The notes below the pieces were generated by a model. That model made no database searches, was not told the DNA's origin, and saw only the letters and a list, made by a program, of their open reading frames with translations. The position numbers were made by a program, and so were the translations under genes. From an uncultured Kiritimatiellota bacterium (GTDB lineage Bacteria; Verrucomicrobiota; Kiritimatiellia; RFP12; UBA1067), in assembly GCA_934635385.1 (NCBI GenBank), contig CAKTZI010000002.1:71772-135771 (forward strand): 64,000 bases of DNA, written 5' to 3'. Positions 56,266 through 61,278 of the stretch are shown in pieces (the first letter of the stretch is position 1; each line of letters opens with the position of its first letter).

Positions 56266-56970
56266 ATGAACAGGTTGATGATGGTTGCCGGCATGACCGC
56301 GCTTGCTGCGGTGCTGACGGGTTGCGCGACAAATGGTGCCGCCGACAAGGACAAGGTTGCCGCATGGCAAAAGGAACGCACACCGGTCGAGGTGCTGAAA
56401 TCGCAGATTGCGGTCAAGGCGGCCGGCGCCGTGGTCGAGACATTGGACGTCGTGCCGTTCGGAATCTACAAGTCCATTGCCGACAAGGTTGATAGGGCTG
56501 CTGTCATGGAACGCTACCGCCGAATCTACCTGGGCTATGTTGCCGACGTGAAGGCGCTCGAGCAGCAGGGCAAGGCGCGTGATGCCGCGCGCAAGGAAGT
56601 CCTTGACCAGGTCAAGGCCCAGCCCAATGGCGCGGAGACGATTGCCAAGCTGAACGAATACCTCAAGATTTCCAAGGAGACGGACTTCGAGGCGATCATG
56701 GCGTGGATCCAGAAGATCACGGAAGAGCTTCAGGCCGCGAGCCAGAAGTTTGCCGAGCAGACGCCGCAGGCGCTTCAGCAGCTCGTGGACATCGCCCAGA
56801 AGGAGGGCGGCATGGCCGTTGTGAAGATTCCGAGCCAGGGCAAGGACGATCTCGCGGTCATCGGTGCCCAGCTGAAGGATTCCGGCGTTGGCCTTGCGCT
56901 GTATGTCGAGATGGTCAACGCAGACAAGGAAGCCGCCAAGGTGCAGGCCGACTATCCGATTGAGGGGTAA
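56266..56970 (+). CDS. alpha-helical lipoprotein of unknown function
   Basis: Signal peptide plus lipobox AAVLTGC. Confidence 0.6.
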   Translation: MNRLMMVAGMTALAAVLTGCATNGAADKDKVAAWQKERTPVEVLKSQIAVKAAGAVVETLDVVPFGIYKSIADKVDRAAVMERYRRIYLGYVADVKALEQQGKARDAARKEVLDQVKAQPNGAETIAKLNEYLKISKETDFEAIMAWIQKITEELQAASQKFAEQTPQALQQLVDIAQKEGGMAVVKIPSQGKDDLAVIGAQLKDSGVGLALYVEMVNADKEAAKVQADYPIEG

Positions 56971-57037
56971 TCGGGGCTGAATAACGCAAGACGGCCCGAC
57001 GGCTTGATGCCGCCGGGCCAGACATGGGACTGTTGAC

Positions 57038-58057
57038 ATGAAGACTTCTGCATTTGCAATCTATGGCGCGGCAGTCGCCGTGGCCGTCTTGGGCGGCTGC
57101 GCGACTGCACCGACCGCACGCGGGCCGATTCCTGCGAAGTACTATTCAAGGGACGAGCTTGAAGACCTCGACGAAGTGAAGCTGCCGCCGAACTACAGCG
57201 TGGACAACTTCCGCAAGATGCAGATGGTCTTGAACGTCAAGATCGAGTCCGCCGACGGCAAGACGAAGGTCAGCAAAGGCCTCTCCACGCGCATGCAGAC
57301 GGAAATGGCCAAGCTGAAGCGCTTCGAGATCTTCTCGCTCCATAACCGCAGCAAGGTCGAGTTGGACGCGATCGGCGATCTGGACGAAGAGGTGAAGGTC
57401 GTCGAGGCGGACAAGGTCAAGGCAAGCGACCTGATGCTGACGGGCACGATCAAGGTGACGTGCGCAGTCAACGAGCTTCGCAACGAGAAAGTGTACGTCT
57501 ACAGCGCGGACGGAGACTTCAGCTGCGAAGACGCCAAGACGCGCACGGTCTACTTCGCCGAGAAGGCGCGCGGCGTATGGGATCGCAAGGTCAAGTACTC
57601 GCTGACGGGTCTGGCGCACGGCAACGTCTCCGAAGACCAGGCCATCCAGATCGCCTGTCTTCGCTGTCTTGCGATTGTCGCGAACAAGCTCGGCAACACG
57701 TTCCCGACGGGCGGTCGCGTGACGAACATCACGGGCTCGGGCGACACGATGGTCATGTCCGCCGGACAGCATGAGGGCATCGGCGCGAACCAGCAGGTCT
57801 GCGTCTTCCTTTCCGAAGACGGTCTCGACATTCCGGTCGCGTTCGCCGAGGCGACGCCCAAGAACGACGGCACGTCGCAGTTGCGCGTCTATCGCTGGAA
57901 CACGGACAATTCCGACGCCAAGGCGGTCGTCAAGGAGATTCGCGGTTCGGGTCGCAGCTTCCTGAAGCAGTACAAGGGTGACAGGAAGAACGGTCTCTAC
58001 GCGGTCGCCTTCGGCATGGCCGTTCCTGCCGACTGGGAAAAGAACGCCAACAAGTGA
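57038..58057 (+). CDS. lipoprotein with CsgG/LpoB/FlgP-like features (tentative)
   Basis: Lipobox AVLGGC. ...KGLSTRMQTEMAKLKRFEIFSLHNRSKVELDAIGDLDEE... resembles the CsgG/LpoB-type core. Confidence 0.45.
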   Translation: MKTSAFAIYGAAVAVAVLGGCATAPTARGPIPAKYYSRDELEDLDEVKLPPNYSVDNFRKMQMVLNVKIESADGKTKVSKGLSTRMQTEMAKLKRFEIFSLHNRSKVELDAIGDLDEEVKVVEADKVKASDLMLTGTIKVTCAVNELRNEKVYVYSADGDFSCEDAKTRTVYFAEKARGVWDRKVKYSLTGLAHGNVSEDQAIQIACLRCLAIVANKLGNTFPTGGRVTNITGSGDTMVMSAGQHEGIGANQQVCVFLSEDGLDIPVAFAEATPKNDGTSQLRVYRWNTDNSDAKAVVKEIRGSGRSFLKQYKGDRKNGLYAVAFGMAVPADWEKNANK

Positions 58058-58067
58058 GGGCTGCGGC

Positions 58068-59282: not shown

Positions 59283-59324
59283 CCTCCCGCAAGGGAAACT
59301 AAAGACAAAAAAGGGAAACAAGAA

Positions 59325-60617
59325 ATGAATAGACTCATGATTGGTGCGATGTGCCTGGCCTCCGTCGGACGCATCTTTGCGCAGGAGACCGCTTCAGCTC
59401 CGGAGGCGACTTCGCAGGAGCCGTACGCGATTGAGGAGAAGGATGTCGATTCGATGATGGACGAGTACATCGCGTCCAAAGGCTGGGTCGAGGGCCTGAA
59501 CGAAAAGGGCGGCAAGCGTTTCTTCGTCGCGAAGGGGGCGGGTGTCATTCAGGCGCCGCGCGCCAGCCAGAGTTACATTGATTCGCGGGTCAATGCCTAC
59601 AACAAGGCGATGCTCGAAGCCAAGAAGGCGATGGTCGAATATCTGGGCGTGGACATCGCGACGGAGACGGCCAAGGAGTATGCCGAGGGCAGCGCAGTCA
59701 GCCCGACGCCGACCGAGGTTCAGGAAGTCGCCGGAAAGCTCAAGCAGTTCCTCTACGCGAAGCTGAACAAGGCGCTTGCCGCTGAGGGCATCGATCCGGT
59801 CAAGGAGCCTGCCGCCGCGAAGGCCGCGCTTGGCAAGCAGCTCAATTCCGAGAAGTATCGGAAGATGATCTCGACGTTGGCGCAGGCTAAAGTCATTGGT
59901 CTCCAGGCAGCCTGCACCTTCGAGGGTTCGCCGTCTTCTGACAAGGGCGAGATTGGCGTCGTCGCCATCTGGAGCGACAGGCTTCAGCAGATGGCATCCT
60001 CGATCGTGACGGGGCGACCCGTTCCGGCTGTCGGCGGCAAGAAGCCGATCGCGGCGCAGGTGTCGTCCGATCCCAGGGTGCTGATGTCGACGTTCGGCGT
60101 CCAGCAGAAGATTGACGAGAACGGCGATCTCGTGCTGGTCGGCTTCGGGCAGGCGGGCGCGATCAGCGAGTCGAAGATGTCGGCCAATGCCGCAAAGACG
60201 AAGGCGCGGCAGATGGCGATTGCGGCGATCCGCGAGTTCGCGGGCGAGCAGGTCGCGGTTGCGACGGACACGCTCAACGCCGAGACTGCGGAGGAGTTCG
60301 AGGGCGGCGCAGAGGCTTACGCCAATGAAAGCGCGATGAAGGAGAAGGTCAAGGCGGCGGCGGGGCGCATGAACATCGCCGGGATTGCGCCGCTCAGGAA
60401 CGTCAAGTGCAAGCATCCGCTGAACGGCAAGACGGTCTTCGTGTGCGCCGTCACCTGGTGTCCGAAGCAGACGGGGCAGGCCCGTCAGCTCAAGGCGAGC
60501 AGGGCCCGGCCTTCGGCGTCCAAGACGGATGCGCGTCCGGCAGCCGCCACGACAGCGCCGGCACCGACGGGTCCGCTCAACAACCAGGGGCAGGGCGCGG
60601 ATGAGGATGCGTTTTAA
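59325..60617 (+). CDS. secreted protein with two LPP20/FlgP-family domains
   Basis: Signal peptide MNRLMIGAMCLASVGRIFA; ...AKGAGVIQAPRASQSYIDSRVNAYNKAMLEAKKAMVEYLGV... and ...GFGQAGAISESKMSANAAKTKARQMAIAAIREFAGEQV... Confidence 0.55.
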   Translation: MNRLMIGAMCLASVGRIFAQETASAPEATSQEPYAIEEKDVDSMMDEYIASKGWVEGLNEKGGKRFFVAKGAGVIQAPRASQSYIDSRVNAYNKAMLEAKKAMVEYLGVDIATETAKEYAEGSAVSPTPTEVQEVAGKLKQFLYAKLNKALAAEGIDPVKEPAAAKAALGKQLNSEKYRKMISTLAQAKVIGLQAACTFEGSPSSDKGEIGVVAIWSDRLQQMASSIVTGRPVPAVGGKKPIAAQVSSDPRVLMSTFGVQQKIDENGDLVLVGFGQAGAISESKMSANAAKTKARQMAIAAIREFAGEQVAVATDTLNAETAEEFEGGAEAYANESAMKEKVKAAAGRMNIAGIAPLRNVKCKHPLNGKTVFVCAVTWCPKQTGQARQLKASRARPSASKTDARPAAATTAPAPTGPLNNQGQGADEDAF

Positions 60618-61278
60618 GTCGCATCTCCTCATGGGAGCTGTCGTCATGGCCCTGTCCGCTTCGGCGGACAGGGTGCATGACGTCTTCGAGGCCAATAAAG
60701 ATGTCATTCTCGCCCAGCCGGTTACGGTCTGCGGCGATGTGACGTTTTCCGTCGGGCGGGCGACATCGCCGCGAAATCGAGGCGATGCCGTCGGATATGC
60801 CAAGGCCGCAGCCCAGGCGAAGTGGAATCTTGGTGAGCGGCATCGCGCGACGGCCGCATGGCCGCGTGACATCCTTGAGTCGGAGATGGCGGACGCATGG
60901 CTTGAATACCGAAGTCGGCAGCACGAACGCTTTTCGCCTGTGGGCATGCAGCGCATACAGACGAAGAAGACGCCGCCTGACGGCTATCGCGTCGTACTGA
61001 GTTTTCCGTCCGAGCAGGTGCGTGTGCCGAAGCCGACGTCGGCAGAGCTAAAGTCGGCTTTGGAGGCTGTTCGCGAACGCAAAAGGATGGCGGAAGAGGC
61101 GTACGCACGGGCGGCGATGGCGGCAAGCGGGCGCAAGGCTCAAATAACGGAATCCGTTTCCGCTGATCATGTTTCTGAGGACAGAACTGTTCACTCAAAA
61201 AGACCTCAGTCTGTCACAGGGGCTGTGGATGAAGAAACCACGAAAAATGACGGTTTTGACGAAGACCTGATGCTGTAG
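60601..61278 (+). CDS. secreted protein with one LPP20-like domain
   Basis: Signal peptide ...MGAVVMALSASA; ...GRATSPRNRGDAVGYAKAAAQAKWNLGE.... The ATG overlaps the upstream 3' end by 17 nt. Confidence 0.5.
   Translation: MRMRFKSHLLMGAVVMALSASADRVHDVFEANKDVILAQPVTVCGDVTFSVGRATSPRNRGDAVGYAKAAAQAKWNLGERHRATAAWPRDILESEMADAWLEYRSRQHERFSPVGMQRIQTKKTPPDGYRVVLSFPSEQVRVPKPTSAELKSALEAVRERKRMAEEAYARAAMAASGRKAQITESVSADHVSEDRTVHSKRPQSVTGAVDEETTKNDGFDEDLML

What the first reader, a model, noticed from the sequence alone, without database searches (positions are those of the whole stretch)
56266..61278. Five-gene co-directional cluster of LPP20/FlgP/CsgG-like lipoproteins and secreted proteins in a locus without flagellar genes
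Five consecutive genes of 234, 339, 404, 430 and 225 aa all carry signal peptides; two have lipoboxes.

- LPP20/FlgP signature: three of them contain one or two copies of the pattern A.G.G...A...A...A...LA..VG (for example AKGSAEITGSKAKAKTIARANALENLAGF, GFGQAGAISESKMSANAAKTKARQMAIAAIREFAG).
- A fourth gene resembles the CsgG/LpoB-type lipoprotein core.
- Spacing: the genes are tightly packed, and the last two overlap.
- Precedent: in Campylobacter and Vibrio, such proteins build periplasmic or outer-membrane rings (FlgP basal disk, CsgG pore).
- Here: no flagellar genes are nearby, and the cluster lies next to the pst / phosphate-porin region.
- Interpretation: this could be an uncharacterised envelope scaffold or pore complex.
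Basis: inference. Interest (0 to 1): 0.6.

Follow-up and report, generated by a model that had tools for sequence, protein, structure and literature searches.

The report
Non-flagellar FlgT/LPP20-like envelope lipoprotein operon
Five neighbouring genes in a gut Kiritimatiellia bacterium form a conserved operon of outer-membrane lipoproteins and periplasmic proteins that use the same folds as flagellar outer rings, yet sit in non-flagellated bacteria and have no known function.

Summary
Five co-directional genes (56266-61278) encode exported proteins of 234, 339, 404, 430 and 225 aa. The first two are lipoproteins.

- **Conservation:** g1-g4 keep the same order, with different flanks, in about 35 loci from gut and rumen Kiritimatiellia and Victivallaceae. 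These include the cultured Victivallis vadensis DSM 14823. g5 is accessory (13 loci).
- **g2:** no Pfam hit. Its model best matches Vibrio H-ring protein FlgT, then CsgG, HpaA, GNA1162, PelC and LptE.
- **g3:** repeated sub-threshold LPP20 and FlgT_N hits. Its model also best matches FlgT.
- **g4:** a full-length homologue of Francisella FTT_1539c (DUF6844, PDB 4QVR). That protein is an outer-membrane-vesicle-associated antigen encoded beside an LpoB-like lipoprotein.
- **Shared domains:** g3, g4 and probably g5 share LPP20-like domains.

None of the proteins reaches a curated LPP20, FlgT or CsgG cut-off. g2 has no CsgG-type membrane hairpin. No flagellar genes were found. The sctR/S/U genes 30 kb upstream are injectisome-type.

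An ECF sigma factor plus Ser/Thr kinase pair lies directly upstream in at least nine other genomes, and a kinase::g2-like fusion protein exists.

Best reading: a non-flagellar, outer-membrane-tethered periplasmic scaffold linked to envelope signalling. Ring formation and function remain untested.

The parts
55792..56265 (+). 474-nt upstream intergenic region. It holds a terminator-like hairpin for the preceding porin gene (56086-56107) and a GGGAG ribosome-binding site 9 nt before the g1 ATG. It presumably carries the operon promoter.
   Evidence: No sigma-70 consensus was found. The promoter is inferred, not shown.
56266..56970 (+). g1: 234-aa lipoprotein (lipobox LTG|C, Ala at +2). Its composition suggests it is mostly helical (not modelled or tested). 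It diverges quickly: the only invariant positions are the start Met, the lipobox Gly-Cys and one Gln.
   Evidence: No Pfam or NCBIfam family was found. The only weak PDB profile hits are to helical BAR domains, E 5e-3. g1 sits upstream of g2 in 34 of 36 loci.
57038..58057 (+). g2: 339-aa lipoprotein (LGG|C). It has an alpha/beta domain of the CsgG/TolB-N/LptE type (about aa 55-222, DNA 57200-57703), then a small beta-barrel (aa 225-287, DNA 57710-57898) and C-terminal helices. A basic motif, KLKRF...HNR, is conserved at aa 92-104.
   Evidence: AF2 model: pLDDT 79, pTM 0.71. Foldseek: FlgT 8z5n 3.5e-13 and 3w1e 1.5e-11 over about 300 columns, CsgG about 4e-6, plus HpaA, GNA1162, PelC and LptE. 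No Pfam hit; CsgG matches 1 of 44 homologues. The family has only 194 clusters among 1.84 billion representatives.
58068..59282 (+). g3: 404-aa exported protein with a type-I signal peptide. It has two LPP20/FlgT_N-like domains (aa 42-146, DNA 58191-58505; aa 168-245, DNA 58569-58802). A third LptE-like alpha/beta domain with a long C-terminal helix follows (aa 265-401, DNA 58860-59270).
   Evidence: Pfam LPP20 at aa 169-214 (E 1.5e-3) and FlgT_N at aa 53-113 (E 5.8e-3), both below cut-off. They recur in 24/29 and 21/29 homologues and in V. vadensis. AF2 pLDDT is 68.5. Foldseek: FlgT 2e-7, then Cj1090c, LptE, GNA1162, PelC and HP1454.
59325..60617 (+). g4: 430-aa exported protein of the DUF6844/FTT_1539c family. 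It has an N-terminal LPP20-like domain (aa 64-127, DNA 59514-59705), the DUF6844 region (aa 133-227, DNA 59721-60005) and a second LPP20-like domain (aa 272-380, DNA 60138-60464). A low-complexity linker leads to a near-invariant acidic tail, ADEDAF-COOH (DNA 60597-60614).
   Evidence: Pfam DUF6844 scores 39.3 bits against a cut-off of 27, and it is present in 34 of 34 homologues. The profile hits PDB 4QVR (Francisella FTT_1539c) at E 1.6e-26 over aa 23-408. hhalign to the first g3 domain gives 93-95%.
60601..61278 (+). g5: 225-aa exported protein that overlaps g4 by 17 nt. Its N-terminal domain (aa 25-140, DNA 60673-61020) is possibly LPP20-like. A charged linker and a conserved acidic tail, (F/L)DEDLML-COOH (DNA 61255-61275), follow. 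It is an accessory gene, found in 13 loci.
   Evidence: Alignment A5 is. hhalign to the second g4 domain gives 70%, E 4e-5, but the whole-protein comparison gives only 18%. No Pfam family was found.

Best explanation
The five genes are one operon. It encodes a non-flagellar envelope assembly specific to gut and rumen Kiritimatiellia and Victivallaceae.

**Proposed arrangement**
- Two lipoproteins (g1, g2) are predicted to be tethered to the inner leaflet of the outer membrane. This is inferred from the lipobox and Ala at +2.
- Three soluble periplasmic proteins (g3, g4, g5) are inferred to associate with them.
- The whole would form an outer-membrane-proximal scaffold.

**Building blocks (shown)**
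- The proteins use small alpha/beta modules of the LPP20/FlgT-N type and the TolB-N/CsgG/LptE type.
- In other bacteria these modules form outer-membrane-tethered rings: FlgT/FlgP/FlgO, CsgG, PelC and TraT.
- g4 is a true homologue of Francisella FTT_1539c. That protein is an abundant antigen associated with outer-membrane vesicles, and it is encoded next to an LpoB-like lipoprotein.

**Inferred steps, by analogy**
- The subunits contact each other through their beta-sheet edges.
- The conserved acidic C-terminal tails of g4 and g5 act as docking peptides. The analogy is to the C-terminal loops of FlgP and FlgO, which lace the Vibrio H-ring together.
- The tails may dock on the conserved basic KLKRF...HNR patch of g2.

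**Likely role**
- An ECF sigma factor plus Ser/Thr kinase pair sits directly upstream in many genomes.
- A kinase fused to a g2-like domain also exists.
- The assembly is therefore probably made or sensed as part of envelope-stress or envelope-homeostasis signalling, rather than for motility or secretion.
For: - **Operon anatomy and export signals:**
- **Synteny:** g1-g2-g3-g4 keep their order in about 35 loci with unrelated flanks, including V. vadensis DSM 14823.
- **g2 and g3 models:** both best match FlgT, then CsgG, HpaA, GNA1162, PelC, LptE and TraT.
- **Recurrent sub-threshold Pfam hits:** LPP20 and FlgT_N in g3 homologues.
- **g4:** DUF6844 above cut-off, and full-length homology to 4QVR.
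- **Domain sharing:** g3 with g4, and g4 with g5.
- **Francisella parallel:** FTT_1537c-1540c is a predicted four-gene operon (PMC4696196). FTT_1540c is annotated K07337, LpoB-like (PMC8149597). FTT_1539c is immunodominant and found in outer-membrane vesicles (PMC4207810, PMC10963506).
- **Regulatory link:** sigma/kinase pair upstream in L005, L006, L008, L012, L026, L027, L028, L029 and L035. The kinase::g2-like fusion is P0459.
- **Conserved acidic tails:**
- **Vibrio H-ring architecture:** FlgT plus the lipoproteins FlgP and FlgO, joined by C-terminal loops (bioRxiv 10.64898/2025.12.02.691832).
- **No flagellar genes:** none in the window or in any locus. sctR/S/U score as injectisome type. 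Kiritimatiella is non-motile (PMC5148204).
Against: - No interaction, oligomer or localisation has been shown, and no multimer prediction could be run.
- Foldseek TM-scores to FlgT are low (0.22-0.30). The match may only reflect shared domain types in the same order.
- The g3 model is of moderate quality (pLDDT 68.5, pTM 0.38).
- Neither the g2 nor the g3 profile finds FlgT, FlgP, Lpp20 or CsgG by sequence in the PDB.
- g1 and g5 have no informative homologues.
- The sigma/kinase pair is absent from this window, so the regulatory link is indirect here.
- The fold class is also used by monomeric proteins such as LptE, LpoB and HpaA, so a ring or scaffold does not follow from the fold.
- Only 64 kb of this genome was seen, so flagellar genes elsewhere cannot be excluded for this organism.
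Confidence: 0.5

Rival explanations
1. Ordinary flagellar accessory proteins. On this view the block is a FlgT/FlgP/FlgO-type H-ring or basal-disk module of a flagellum encoded elsewhere in the genome.
For: - FlgT is the top structural match for both g2 and g3.
- FlgT_N and LPP20 give Pfam hits.
Against: - No flagellar gene lies within 64 kb here, or within 8-10 kb flanks in 37 other loci.
- The type III genes in the window pass the SctR/S/U cut-offs but not those of FliP, FliQ or FlhB.
- The cultured Kiritimatiella is non-motile. V. vadensis was described as non-motile (own knowledge: Zoetendal 2003).
- The g2 profile search of 1.84 billion proteins gave a small family, named only as Lentisphaeria where a name exists. 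None of 10 distant members has a FlgT Pfam domain.
- g2 is a lipoprotein, whereas FlgT is not.
Confidence: 0.04
2. A CsgG- or PelC-like outer-membrane export channel. g2 would oligomerise into a pore or funnel that exports g3-g5 or a polymer to the cell surface.
For: - The g2 fold matches CsgG (E about 4e-6) and PelC (about 3e-4).
- One of 44 homologues gives a weak CsgG Pfam hit.
- g4 and g5 have disordered linkers and conserved tails, as secretion substrates or adaptors sometimes do.
Against: - g2 has no insertion equivalent to the CsgG transmembrane hairpins. Its only long loop (aa 104-128) is acidic and is predicted partly helical.
- There are no curlin-like repeats and no CsgE, CsgF, PelB or Pel genes in the block.
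- FlgT, which is not a pore, matches far better than CsgG.
Confidence: 0.08
3. Regulators of peptidoglycan synthesis, or outer membrane to peptidoglycan tethers of the LpoB/TolB-N type. The lipoproteins would reach from the outer membrane to the cell-wall machinery, and the kinase/sigma pair would sense wall status.
For: - In Francisella the g4 homologue is encoded next to a K07337 LpoB-like lipoprotein.
- g2 has the same fold class as LpoB and TolB-N.
- A Ser/Thr kinase and an ECF sigma factor are adjacent in many loci.
- Kiritimatiellae and Lentisphaerae have an unusual ornithine-containing peptidoglycan (PMC5148204).
Against: - None of the five proteins or their homologues gives a Pfam LpoB hit.
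- No PBP or peptidoglycan-binding domain (OmpA_C, LysM, SPOR) was detected in the block.
- The K07337 label in Francisella is an automatic annotation, not a tested function.
Confidence: 0.15
4. Surface-exposed lipoprotein and antigen set used for host or glycan interaction in the gut, like H. pylori HpaA or the Lpp20 operon. It would have no higher-order structure.
For: - The fold matches HpaA/HP0492 (E 3e-6 to 1e-5) and HP1454 (3e-3).
- FTT_1539c is an immunodominant antigen associated with outer-membrane vesicles.
- The block is restricted to gut and rumen lineages.
- Sequence diverges fast in g1 and g5, and the block has lower GC3 than its flanks.
Against: - Strict gene order is kept across two classes. 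g3, g4 and g5 also share domains. Both point to co-assembly rather than independent adhesins.
- g3-g5 have no lipid anchor.
- No adhesin or carbohydrate-binding domains were detected.
Confidence: 0.12
5. Accessory periplasmic or outer-membrane ring of the injectisome-type type III secretion system whose sctR/S/U genes lie 30 kb upstream.
For: - sctR, sctS and sctU are present in the same window.
- FlgT-like modules surround a type III machine in Vibrio.
Against: - No sct gene lies next to the block in any of the 37 other loci.
- The 30 kb between them holds unrelated glycoside hydrolase, ribosomal and pst genes.
Confidence: 0.04

Closest known systems
Vibrio flagellar H-ring protein FlgT (PDB 3W1E, 8Z5N) with its lipoprotein partners FlgP and FlgO
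   Same: - FlgT is the top structural match of both g2 (E 3.5e-13, about 300 aligned columns) and g3 (E 2e-7).
- g3 gives FlgT_N and LPP20 Pfam hits.
- As in the H-ring, the set combines small outer-membrane lipoproteins with non-lipidated multi-domain partners. It also has conserved C-terminal extensions.
   Different: - No curated threshold is met, and FlgT_M and FlgT_C give no hits.
- TM-scores are only 0.22-0.30.
- g2 is itself a lipoprotein, unlike FlgT.
- No flgH, flgI, motX or motY context was found.
- The host lineages are non-motile.
Francisella tularensis FTT_1539c (DUF6844, PDB 4QVR) and its FTT_1537c-1540c operon
   Same: - g4 is homologous over its full length (E 1.6e-26, aa 23-408) and passes the DUF6844 cut-off.
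- Both are exported proteins of non-flagellated Gram-negative bacteria.
- Both lie in small operons that also encode a lipoprotein of the CsgG/LpoB fold class.
   Different: - Whether g2 and g3 have Francisella counterparts could not be tested.
- g2 does not hit the LpoB Pfam model.
- The function of FTT_1539c is itself unknown.
CsgG curli secretion channel (PF03783; PDB 4UV2, 4UV3)
   Same: Both are lipoproteins with the same alpha/beta core fold (Foldseek E about 4e-6, probability 1.0).
   Different: - The window protein gives no CsgG HMM hit. Only 1 of 44 homologues does, at 1e-3.
- There is no transmembrane hairpin insertion.
- There are no curli partner genes.
LPP20 family (PF02169): H. 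pylori Lpp20 with its HP1454/HP1457 operon, and Campylobacter FlgP
   Same: - LPP20 hits recur in g3 homologues (24 of 29; best 2e-6).
- HP1454 and the C. jejuni periplasmic scaffold appear among the g3 fold matches.
- Both sit in a small operon of exported envelope proteins.
   Different: - The window protein scores below the gathering cut-off (19.4 against 25.9 bits).
- The LPP20-like proteins here (g3-g5) are not lipoproteins and are three to four times larger, with tandem domains.
- A domain profile finds no LPP20 or FlgP chain in the PDB by sequence.
LptE-like outer-membrane lipoproteins: PelC dodecamer, GNA1162/DUF799, Cj1090c, CT253, LptE, TraT decamer
   Same: They share the fold class with the g2 alpha/beta domain and the third g3 domain. 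Several of them form outer-membrane-tethered homo-oligomeric rings.
   Different: - There is no sequence-level relationship.
- None of their partner genes (PelB, LptD, DUF4810) is in the block.

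Membership tests
LPP20 / FlgP (Pfam PF02169) | HMM score at or above the gathering cut-off (25.9 bits) | tested here: not met
   g3 scores 19.4 bits, E 1.5e-3. The family recurs in 24 of 29 homologues with a best E of 2.1e-6. It is sub-threshold again in V. vadensis and L007. g4 and g5 give no hit.
LPP20 / FlgP (Pfam PF02169) | Small lipoprotein with an N-terminal lipobox Cys | tested here: not met
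   g3, g4 and g5 have type-I signal peptides and no conserved lipobox. They are 225-430 aa long.
LPP20 / FlgP (Pfam PF02169) | Two-sheet alpha/beta sandwich fold | tested here: inconclusive
   The g3 model (pLDDT 68.5) matches FlgT, LptE-like proteins and a C. jejuni scaffold chain (E 0.012). No direct Lpp20 or FlgP chain is among the significant hits. A sequence profile of the domain finds nothing in the PDB.
FlgT (Pfam FlgT_N PF16548, with the FlgT_M and FlgT_C families) | [quoted passage not shown] | tested here: not met
   FlgT_N scores 17.6 bits against a cut-off of 28.8 in g3. FlgT_M and FlgT_C give no hits in any protein.
FlgT (Pfam FlgT_N PF16548, with the FlgT_M and FlgT_C families) | Three-domain N-M-C architecture as in 3W1E | tested here: inconclusive
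FlgT (Pfam FlgT_N PF16548, with the FlgT_M and FlgT_C families) | Flagellar gene context (flgH/I, motX/Y, flgO/P) | tested here: not met
   None was found in the 64-kb window or in the flanks of 37 loci. The type III genes present are Sct-type. The whole genome was not available.
CsgG (Pfam PF03783) | HMM match | tested here: not met
   The window g2 gives no hit. One of 44 homologues hits at E 9.6e-4.
CsgG (Pfam PF03783) | Lipoprotein with the CsgG alpha/beta core | tested here: met
   The lipobox is LGG|C. Foldseek gives E 3.6e-6 and probability 1.0 to 4UV2.
CsgG (Pfam PF03783) | Transmembrane beta-hairpins forming the barrel, and curli partners CsgE/F/A/B | tested here: not met
   The only long loop (aa 104-128) is acidic and partly helical in the model. 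No curli families were detected in g1-g5.
DUF6844 / FTT_1539c family (Pfam PF20891) | HMM score at or above the cut-off (27 bits) | tested here: met
   g4 scores 39.3 bits, E 7e-10. All 34 of 34 homologues hit, with a best E of 7e-17.
DUF6844 / FTT_1539c family (Pfam PF20891) | Full-length homology to the solved member 4QVR | tested here: met
   The profile of A3 against 4QVR_A gives E 1.6e-26, aligning query aa 23-408 to chain residues 80-474.
LpoB (Pfam PF13036 / K07337) | HMM match | tested here: not met
   g1-g5 and the 44 g2 homologues give no LpoB hit. A separate true LpoB-family gene lies upstream in L005 and L006.

The most novel reading that the evidence does not exclude
The block builds a free-standing, outer-membrane-tethered periplasmic ring or disk from FlgT/FlgP-like modules in bacteria that have no flagellum. 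It would be either a repurposed relic of the flagellar outer rings of the flagellated PVC ancestor, or a surviving example of the non-flagellar envelope module from which H-rings and basal disks were recruited. An ECF sigma/Ser-Thr kinase pair would control it. Francisella would have a counterpart in FTT_1537c-1540c.
Probability: 0.12. Interest if true: 0.75.

Novelty: new variant of a known kind. Interest (0 to 1): 0.45.

Why it matters
- **A new context for known folds.** LPP20, FlgT, CsgG and LptE-like modules are the standard building blocks of outer-membrane-tethered rings. Most characterised examples belong to flagella or to dedicated secretion systems. Here a conserved operon built from these modules is found in non-flagellated PVC bacteria. 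It is linked to an ECF sigma/kinase pair and to the unexplained Francisella antigen FTT_1539c.
- **A tractable route to function.** The block is present in the cultured Victivallis vadensis DSM 14823. This gives a way to assign a function to DUF6844. It also lets one ask where the flagellar outer rings came from.
- **What it would add.** If the proteins assemble, this would be a new type of envelope structure in a poorly studied gut phylum. If they do not, they are simply a lineage-specific set of envelope lipoproteins.

Tried and rejected
- **PDB sequence searches.** Profiles of g2, g3 and g1, and of the pooled LPP20-like domain, gave nothing useful. Only g4 hit, to 4QVR.
- **g2 against g3.** hhalign found no detectable sequence relationship, so their shared FlgT match is at fold level only.
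- **NCBIfam on g1-g5.** No family was found.
- **HMMER search of 1.84 billion representatives with the g2 profile.**
  - It returned 194 clusters.
  - None of 10 distant members had a FlgT, CsgG or LpoB Pfam domain.
  - Only one cluster carried a name (Lentisphaeria).
  - This argues against sequence-level FlgT membership, but gave no function.
- **CsgG-type pore hairpin in g2.** Rejected after inspecting the loop at aa 104-128 across 44 homologues.
- **Link to the pst/porin neighbours.** Rejected because the flanks differ in other genomes.
- **Flagellar reading of the FliP, FliQ and FlhB Pfam hits.** Rejected because the NCBIfam Sct equivalogs pass their cut-offs and the flagellar ones do not.
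- **g1 BAR-domain hit (E 5e-3).** Treated as chance similarity between helical proteins.

Full report
**1. What is there**

The + strand between 56266 and 61278 carries five ORFs of 234, 339, 404, 430 and 225 aa. The gaps between them are 67, 10 and 42 nt, and the last two genes overlap by 17 nt.

- g1 and g2 begin with lipoprotein signal peptides (LTG|C and LGG|C, each with Ala at +2).
- g3, g4 and g5 have type-I signal peptides.
- A 474-nt intergenic region precedes g1. It contains a terminator-like hairpin after the upstream porin gene, and a GGGAG ribosome-binding site.
- The block has lower GC (about 0.60) and lower GC3 (0.64-0.84) than its neighbours (GC3 0.85-0.96).
- The same contig occurs in a Hadza human-gut metagenome. 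The closest genome is 'Verrucomicrobia bacterium UBA1629', with other Kiritimatiellia MAGs also close.

**2. Is it a unit?**

Yes. Homologues of g3, g2 and g4 were traced to their contigs, and a scan of species-representative genomes returned 29 loci.

- Searching all ORFs of these loci with g1-g5 shows the order g1-g2-g3-g4 wherever the contig is long enough. The counts are g1 in 34 loci, g2 in 36, g3 in 36 and full-length g4 in about 28.
- g5 is present in only 13 loci.
- The flanks differ between genomes: pst/porin here, tRNA methyltransferase, S1-L28, MFS/EPSP synthase, or AraC elsewhere. The pst neighbourhood is therefore incidental.
- The carriers are gut and rumen Kiritimatiellia and Victivallaceae from horse, deer, buffalo, goat, chicken and human. 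They include the cultured type strain Victivallis vadensis DSM 14823 (L029).

**3. What the proteins are**

*g2*
- It has no Pfam or NCBIfam match.
- Only one of 44 homologues gives a weak CsgG hit.
- Its AF2 model (pLDDT 79) has an alpha/beta domain followed by a small beta-barrel.
- Foldseek against the PDB puts Vibrio FlgT first (8Z5N 3.5e-13; 3W1E 1.5e-11; about 300 aligned columns; TM about 0.30). HpaA/HP0492, CsgG (about 4e-6), GNA1162, CT253, Cj1090c, PelC and LptE follow.
- From my own knowledge of Terashima et al. 2013, FlgT-M is TolB-N-like and FlgT-C is a beta-barrel. That fits the two domains of g2.
- The only long loop of g2 (aa 104-128) is acidic in all homologues. There is therefore no CsgG-type transmembrane hairpin.
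- An exhaustive HMMER search of 1.84 billion representatives found only 194 clusters. Ten distant members carry no FlgT, CsgG or LpoB Pfam domain. The only named cluster is from Lentisphaeria.

*g3*
- It gives sub-threshold LPP20 (aa 169-214) and FlgT_N (aa 53-113) hits.
- These recur in 24 and 21 of 29 homologues. In V. vadensis the two families hit the opposite domains, so both N-terminal domains are of this type.
- Its model (pLDDT 68.5) again best matches FlgT (2e-7). Cj1090c, LptE, GNA1162, PelC, HP1454 and TraT follow.

*g4*
- It passes the DUF6844 cut-off, as do all 34 homologues tested.
- Its profile matches PDB 4QVR, Francisella tularensis FTT_1539c, over almost the whole length (E 1.6e-26).
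- Its N-terminal domain is homologous to the first g3 domain (hhalign 93-95%).
- Its second LPP20-like domain aligns with the g5 N-terminal domain at 70%.

*Tails and the remaining genes*
- g4 ends in a near-invariant acidic tail...ADEDAF in most Kiritimatiellia...DV(S/G/D)DDF in Victivallaceae and a few Kiritimatiellia, and ...DDDE(D/E) in a third group.
- g5 ends in (F/L)DEDLML.
- g1 diverges rapidly and has no informative homologue. Its composition suggests a helical lipoprotein, but no secondary-structure prediction was made.

**4. Context clues**

- *Francisella.* FTT_1539c is an immunodominant antigen found in outer-membrane vesicles (PMC4207810, PMC10963506).
  - It lies in a predicted four-gene operon, FTT_1537c-1540c (PMC4696196).
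  - In that operon, FTT_1540c is auto-annotated as an LpoB-type lipoprotein (K07337; PMC8149597).
  - The pairing of a DUF6844 protein with a CsgG/LpoB-fold lipoprotein therefore recurs in a non-flagellated gammaproteobacterium.
- *Regulatory neighbours.* An ECF-type sigma factor and a Ser/Thr kinase lie directly upstream of the block in L005, L006, L008, L012, L026, L027, L028, L029 and L035.
  - One protein in the database fuses a kinase, a transmembrane helix and a g2-like domain (P0459).
  - The window itself has no such pair.
- *Type III genes.* The window encodes proteins with FliP, FliQ and FlhB Pfam domains at 24131-26183.
  - NCBIfam equivalogs assign them to injectisome SctR, SctS and SctU. 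The flagellar models fall below their cut-offs.
  - No flagellar genes appear in the window or in any locus.
- *Motility.* Kiritimatiella is non-motile (PMC5148204). The common ancestor of these phyla has nevertheless been inferred to be flagellated (PMC9816063).

**5. How it most likely works**

*Shown*
- The genes form a co-conserved operon.
- It encodes two lipoproteins and three exported proteins.
- g2 and g3 have FlgT-like combinations of LPP20/TolB-N/LptE-type modules.
- g4 is a member of the FTT_1539c family.
- g3 and g4, and probably g5, share domains.

*Inferred*
- g1 and g2 anchor in the inner leaflet of the outer membrane (Ala at +2, using the E. coli sorting rule).
- g3-g5 bind them in the periplasm.
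- The acidic tails serve as docking peptides. The model is the C-terminal loops of FlgP and FlgO, which tie the concentric rings of the Vibrio H-ring together. The conserved KLKRF...HNR patch of g2 may be the docking site.
- The sigma/kinase link suggests a role in envelope homeostasis.
- I give this scaffold reading about 0.5. A true closed ring is less likely and remains untested.

**6. Rivals**

| Reading | Confidence | Main objection |
|---|---|---|
| Flagellar accessory module | 0.04 | Context and lifestyle contradict it |
| CsgG/PelC-like pore | 0.08 | No hairpin and no partner genes |
| LpoB-like wall regulator or tether | 0.15 | No LpoB HMM hit and no peptidoglycan-binding domain |
| Surface antigens or adhesins like HpaA/Lpp20 | 0.12 | Possible, but does not explain the strict synteny and shared domains |
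| Injectisome accessory ring | 0.04 | No co-location in other genomes |

**7. Comparison and novelty**

- The fold classes are well known, and g4 belongs to an existing Pfam DUF with a deposited structure.
- New here are:
  - the operon as a conserved unit in non-flagellated PVC bacteria;
  - its FlgT-like lipoprotein family (g2), which has no existing family assignment;
  - the link to a sigma/kinase pair;
  - the connection to the Francisella antigen.
- I class it as a new variant of a known kind, with interest 0.45.

**8. Limits**

- No oligomer prediction, localisation or expression data could be obtained.
- TM-scores to FlgT are low.
- Only 64 kb of this genome was visible.

Noticed in passing
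window 24131-26183 (+): Three adjacent genes encode the type III export-gate proteins SctR (224 aa), SctS (89 aa) and SctU (362 aa). They pass the NCBIfam injectisome equivalog cut-offs but not the flagellar ones. No sctT lies between sctS and sctU. The neighbours are a glycosyltransferase and an AraC/LacI-like regulator, not other sct genes.
   Followed up: partly
L005 2315-4419, L006, L008 1937-3870, L012 5233-7108, L026 6549-8526, L027, L028, L029 139-2224, L035: An ECF-type sigma factor and a Ser/Thr kinase lie directly upstream of the g1-g4 block in at least nine loci from both Victivallaceae and Kiritimatiellia. They are absent from this window.
   Followed up: partly
P0459 (696 aa; metagenomic protein, no locus): This is a fusion protein. 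It has an N-terminal Ser/Thr kinase domain (aa 12-208), one transmembrane helix, a Pro/Ser-rich linker and a C-terminal g2-like domain (aa 408-660). It links the g2 fold to kinase signalling.
   Followed up: partly
window 50417-51394 (+): A 325-aa ORF with no Pfam family sits on the opposite strand between pstB/phoU and pstA/pstC, interrupting the pst gene cluster. The same arrangement is seen in L001.
   Followed up: no
window 56001-61278, compared with the flanks: The block has lower GC (about 0.60 against 0.66-0.70) and lower GC3 than neighbouring genes (0.64-0.84 against 0.85-0.96). g5 is the lowest at 0.64. The cause may be amino-acid composition, expression level or a separate history.
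   Followed up: partly
window 6001-8000: A marked GC dip (0.51 against about 0.66) coincides with small ORFs, including a YoeB-type toxin gene at about 7102-7356. This may be a mobile or toxin-antitoxin islet.
   Followed up: no
L005 1260-2301 and L006 1219-2260: A DUF1425 (YcfL-like) gene and a true Pfam LpoB-family gene sit just upstream of the sigma/kinase pair that precedes the block. A second envelope-lipoprotein pair is thus in the same neighbourhood.
   Followed up: no
window 59325-60617 (g4 C-terminus) and 60601-61278 (g5 C-terminus); homologues in L002-L034: Both proteins end in conserved acidic tails with a hydrophobic last residue, after low-complexity linkers...ADEDAF...DVSDDF and ...FDEDLML. 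One g5-position protein (L033) carries TPR repeats instead of the tail.
   Followed up: partly
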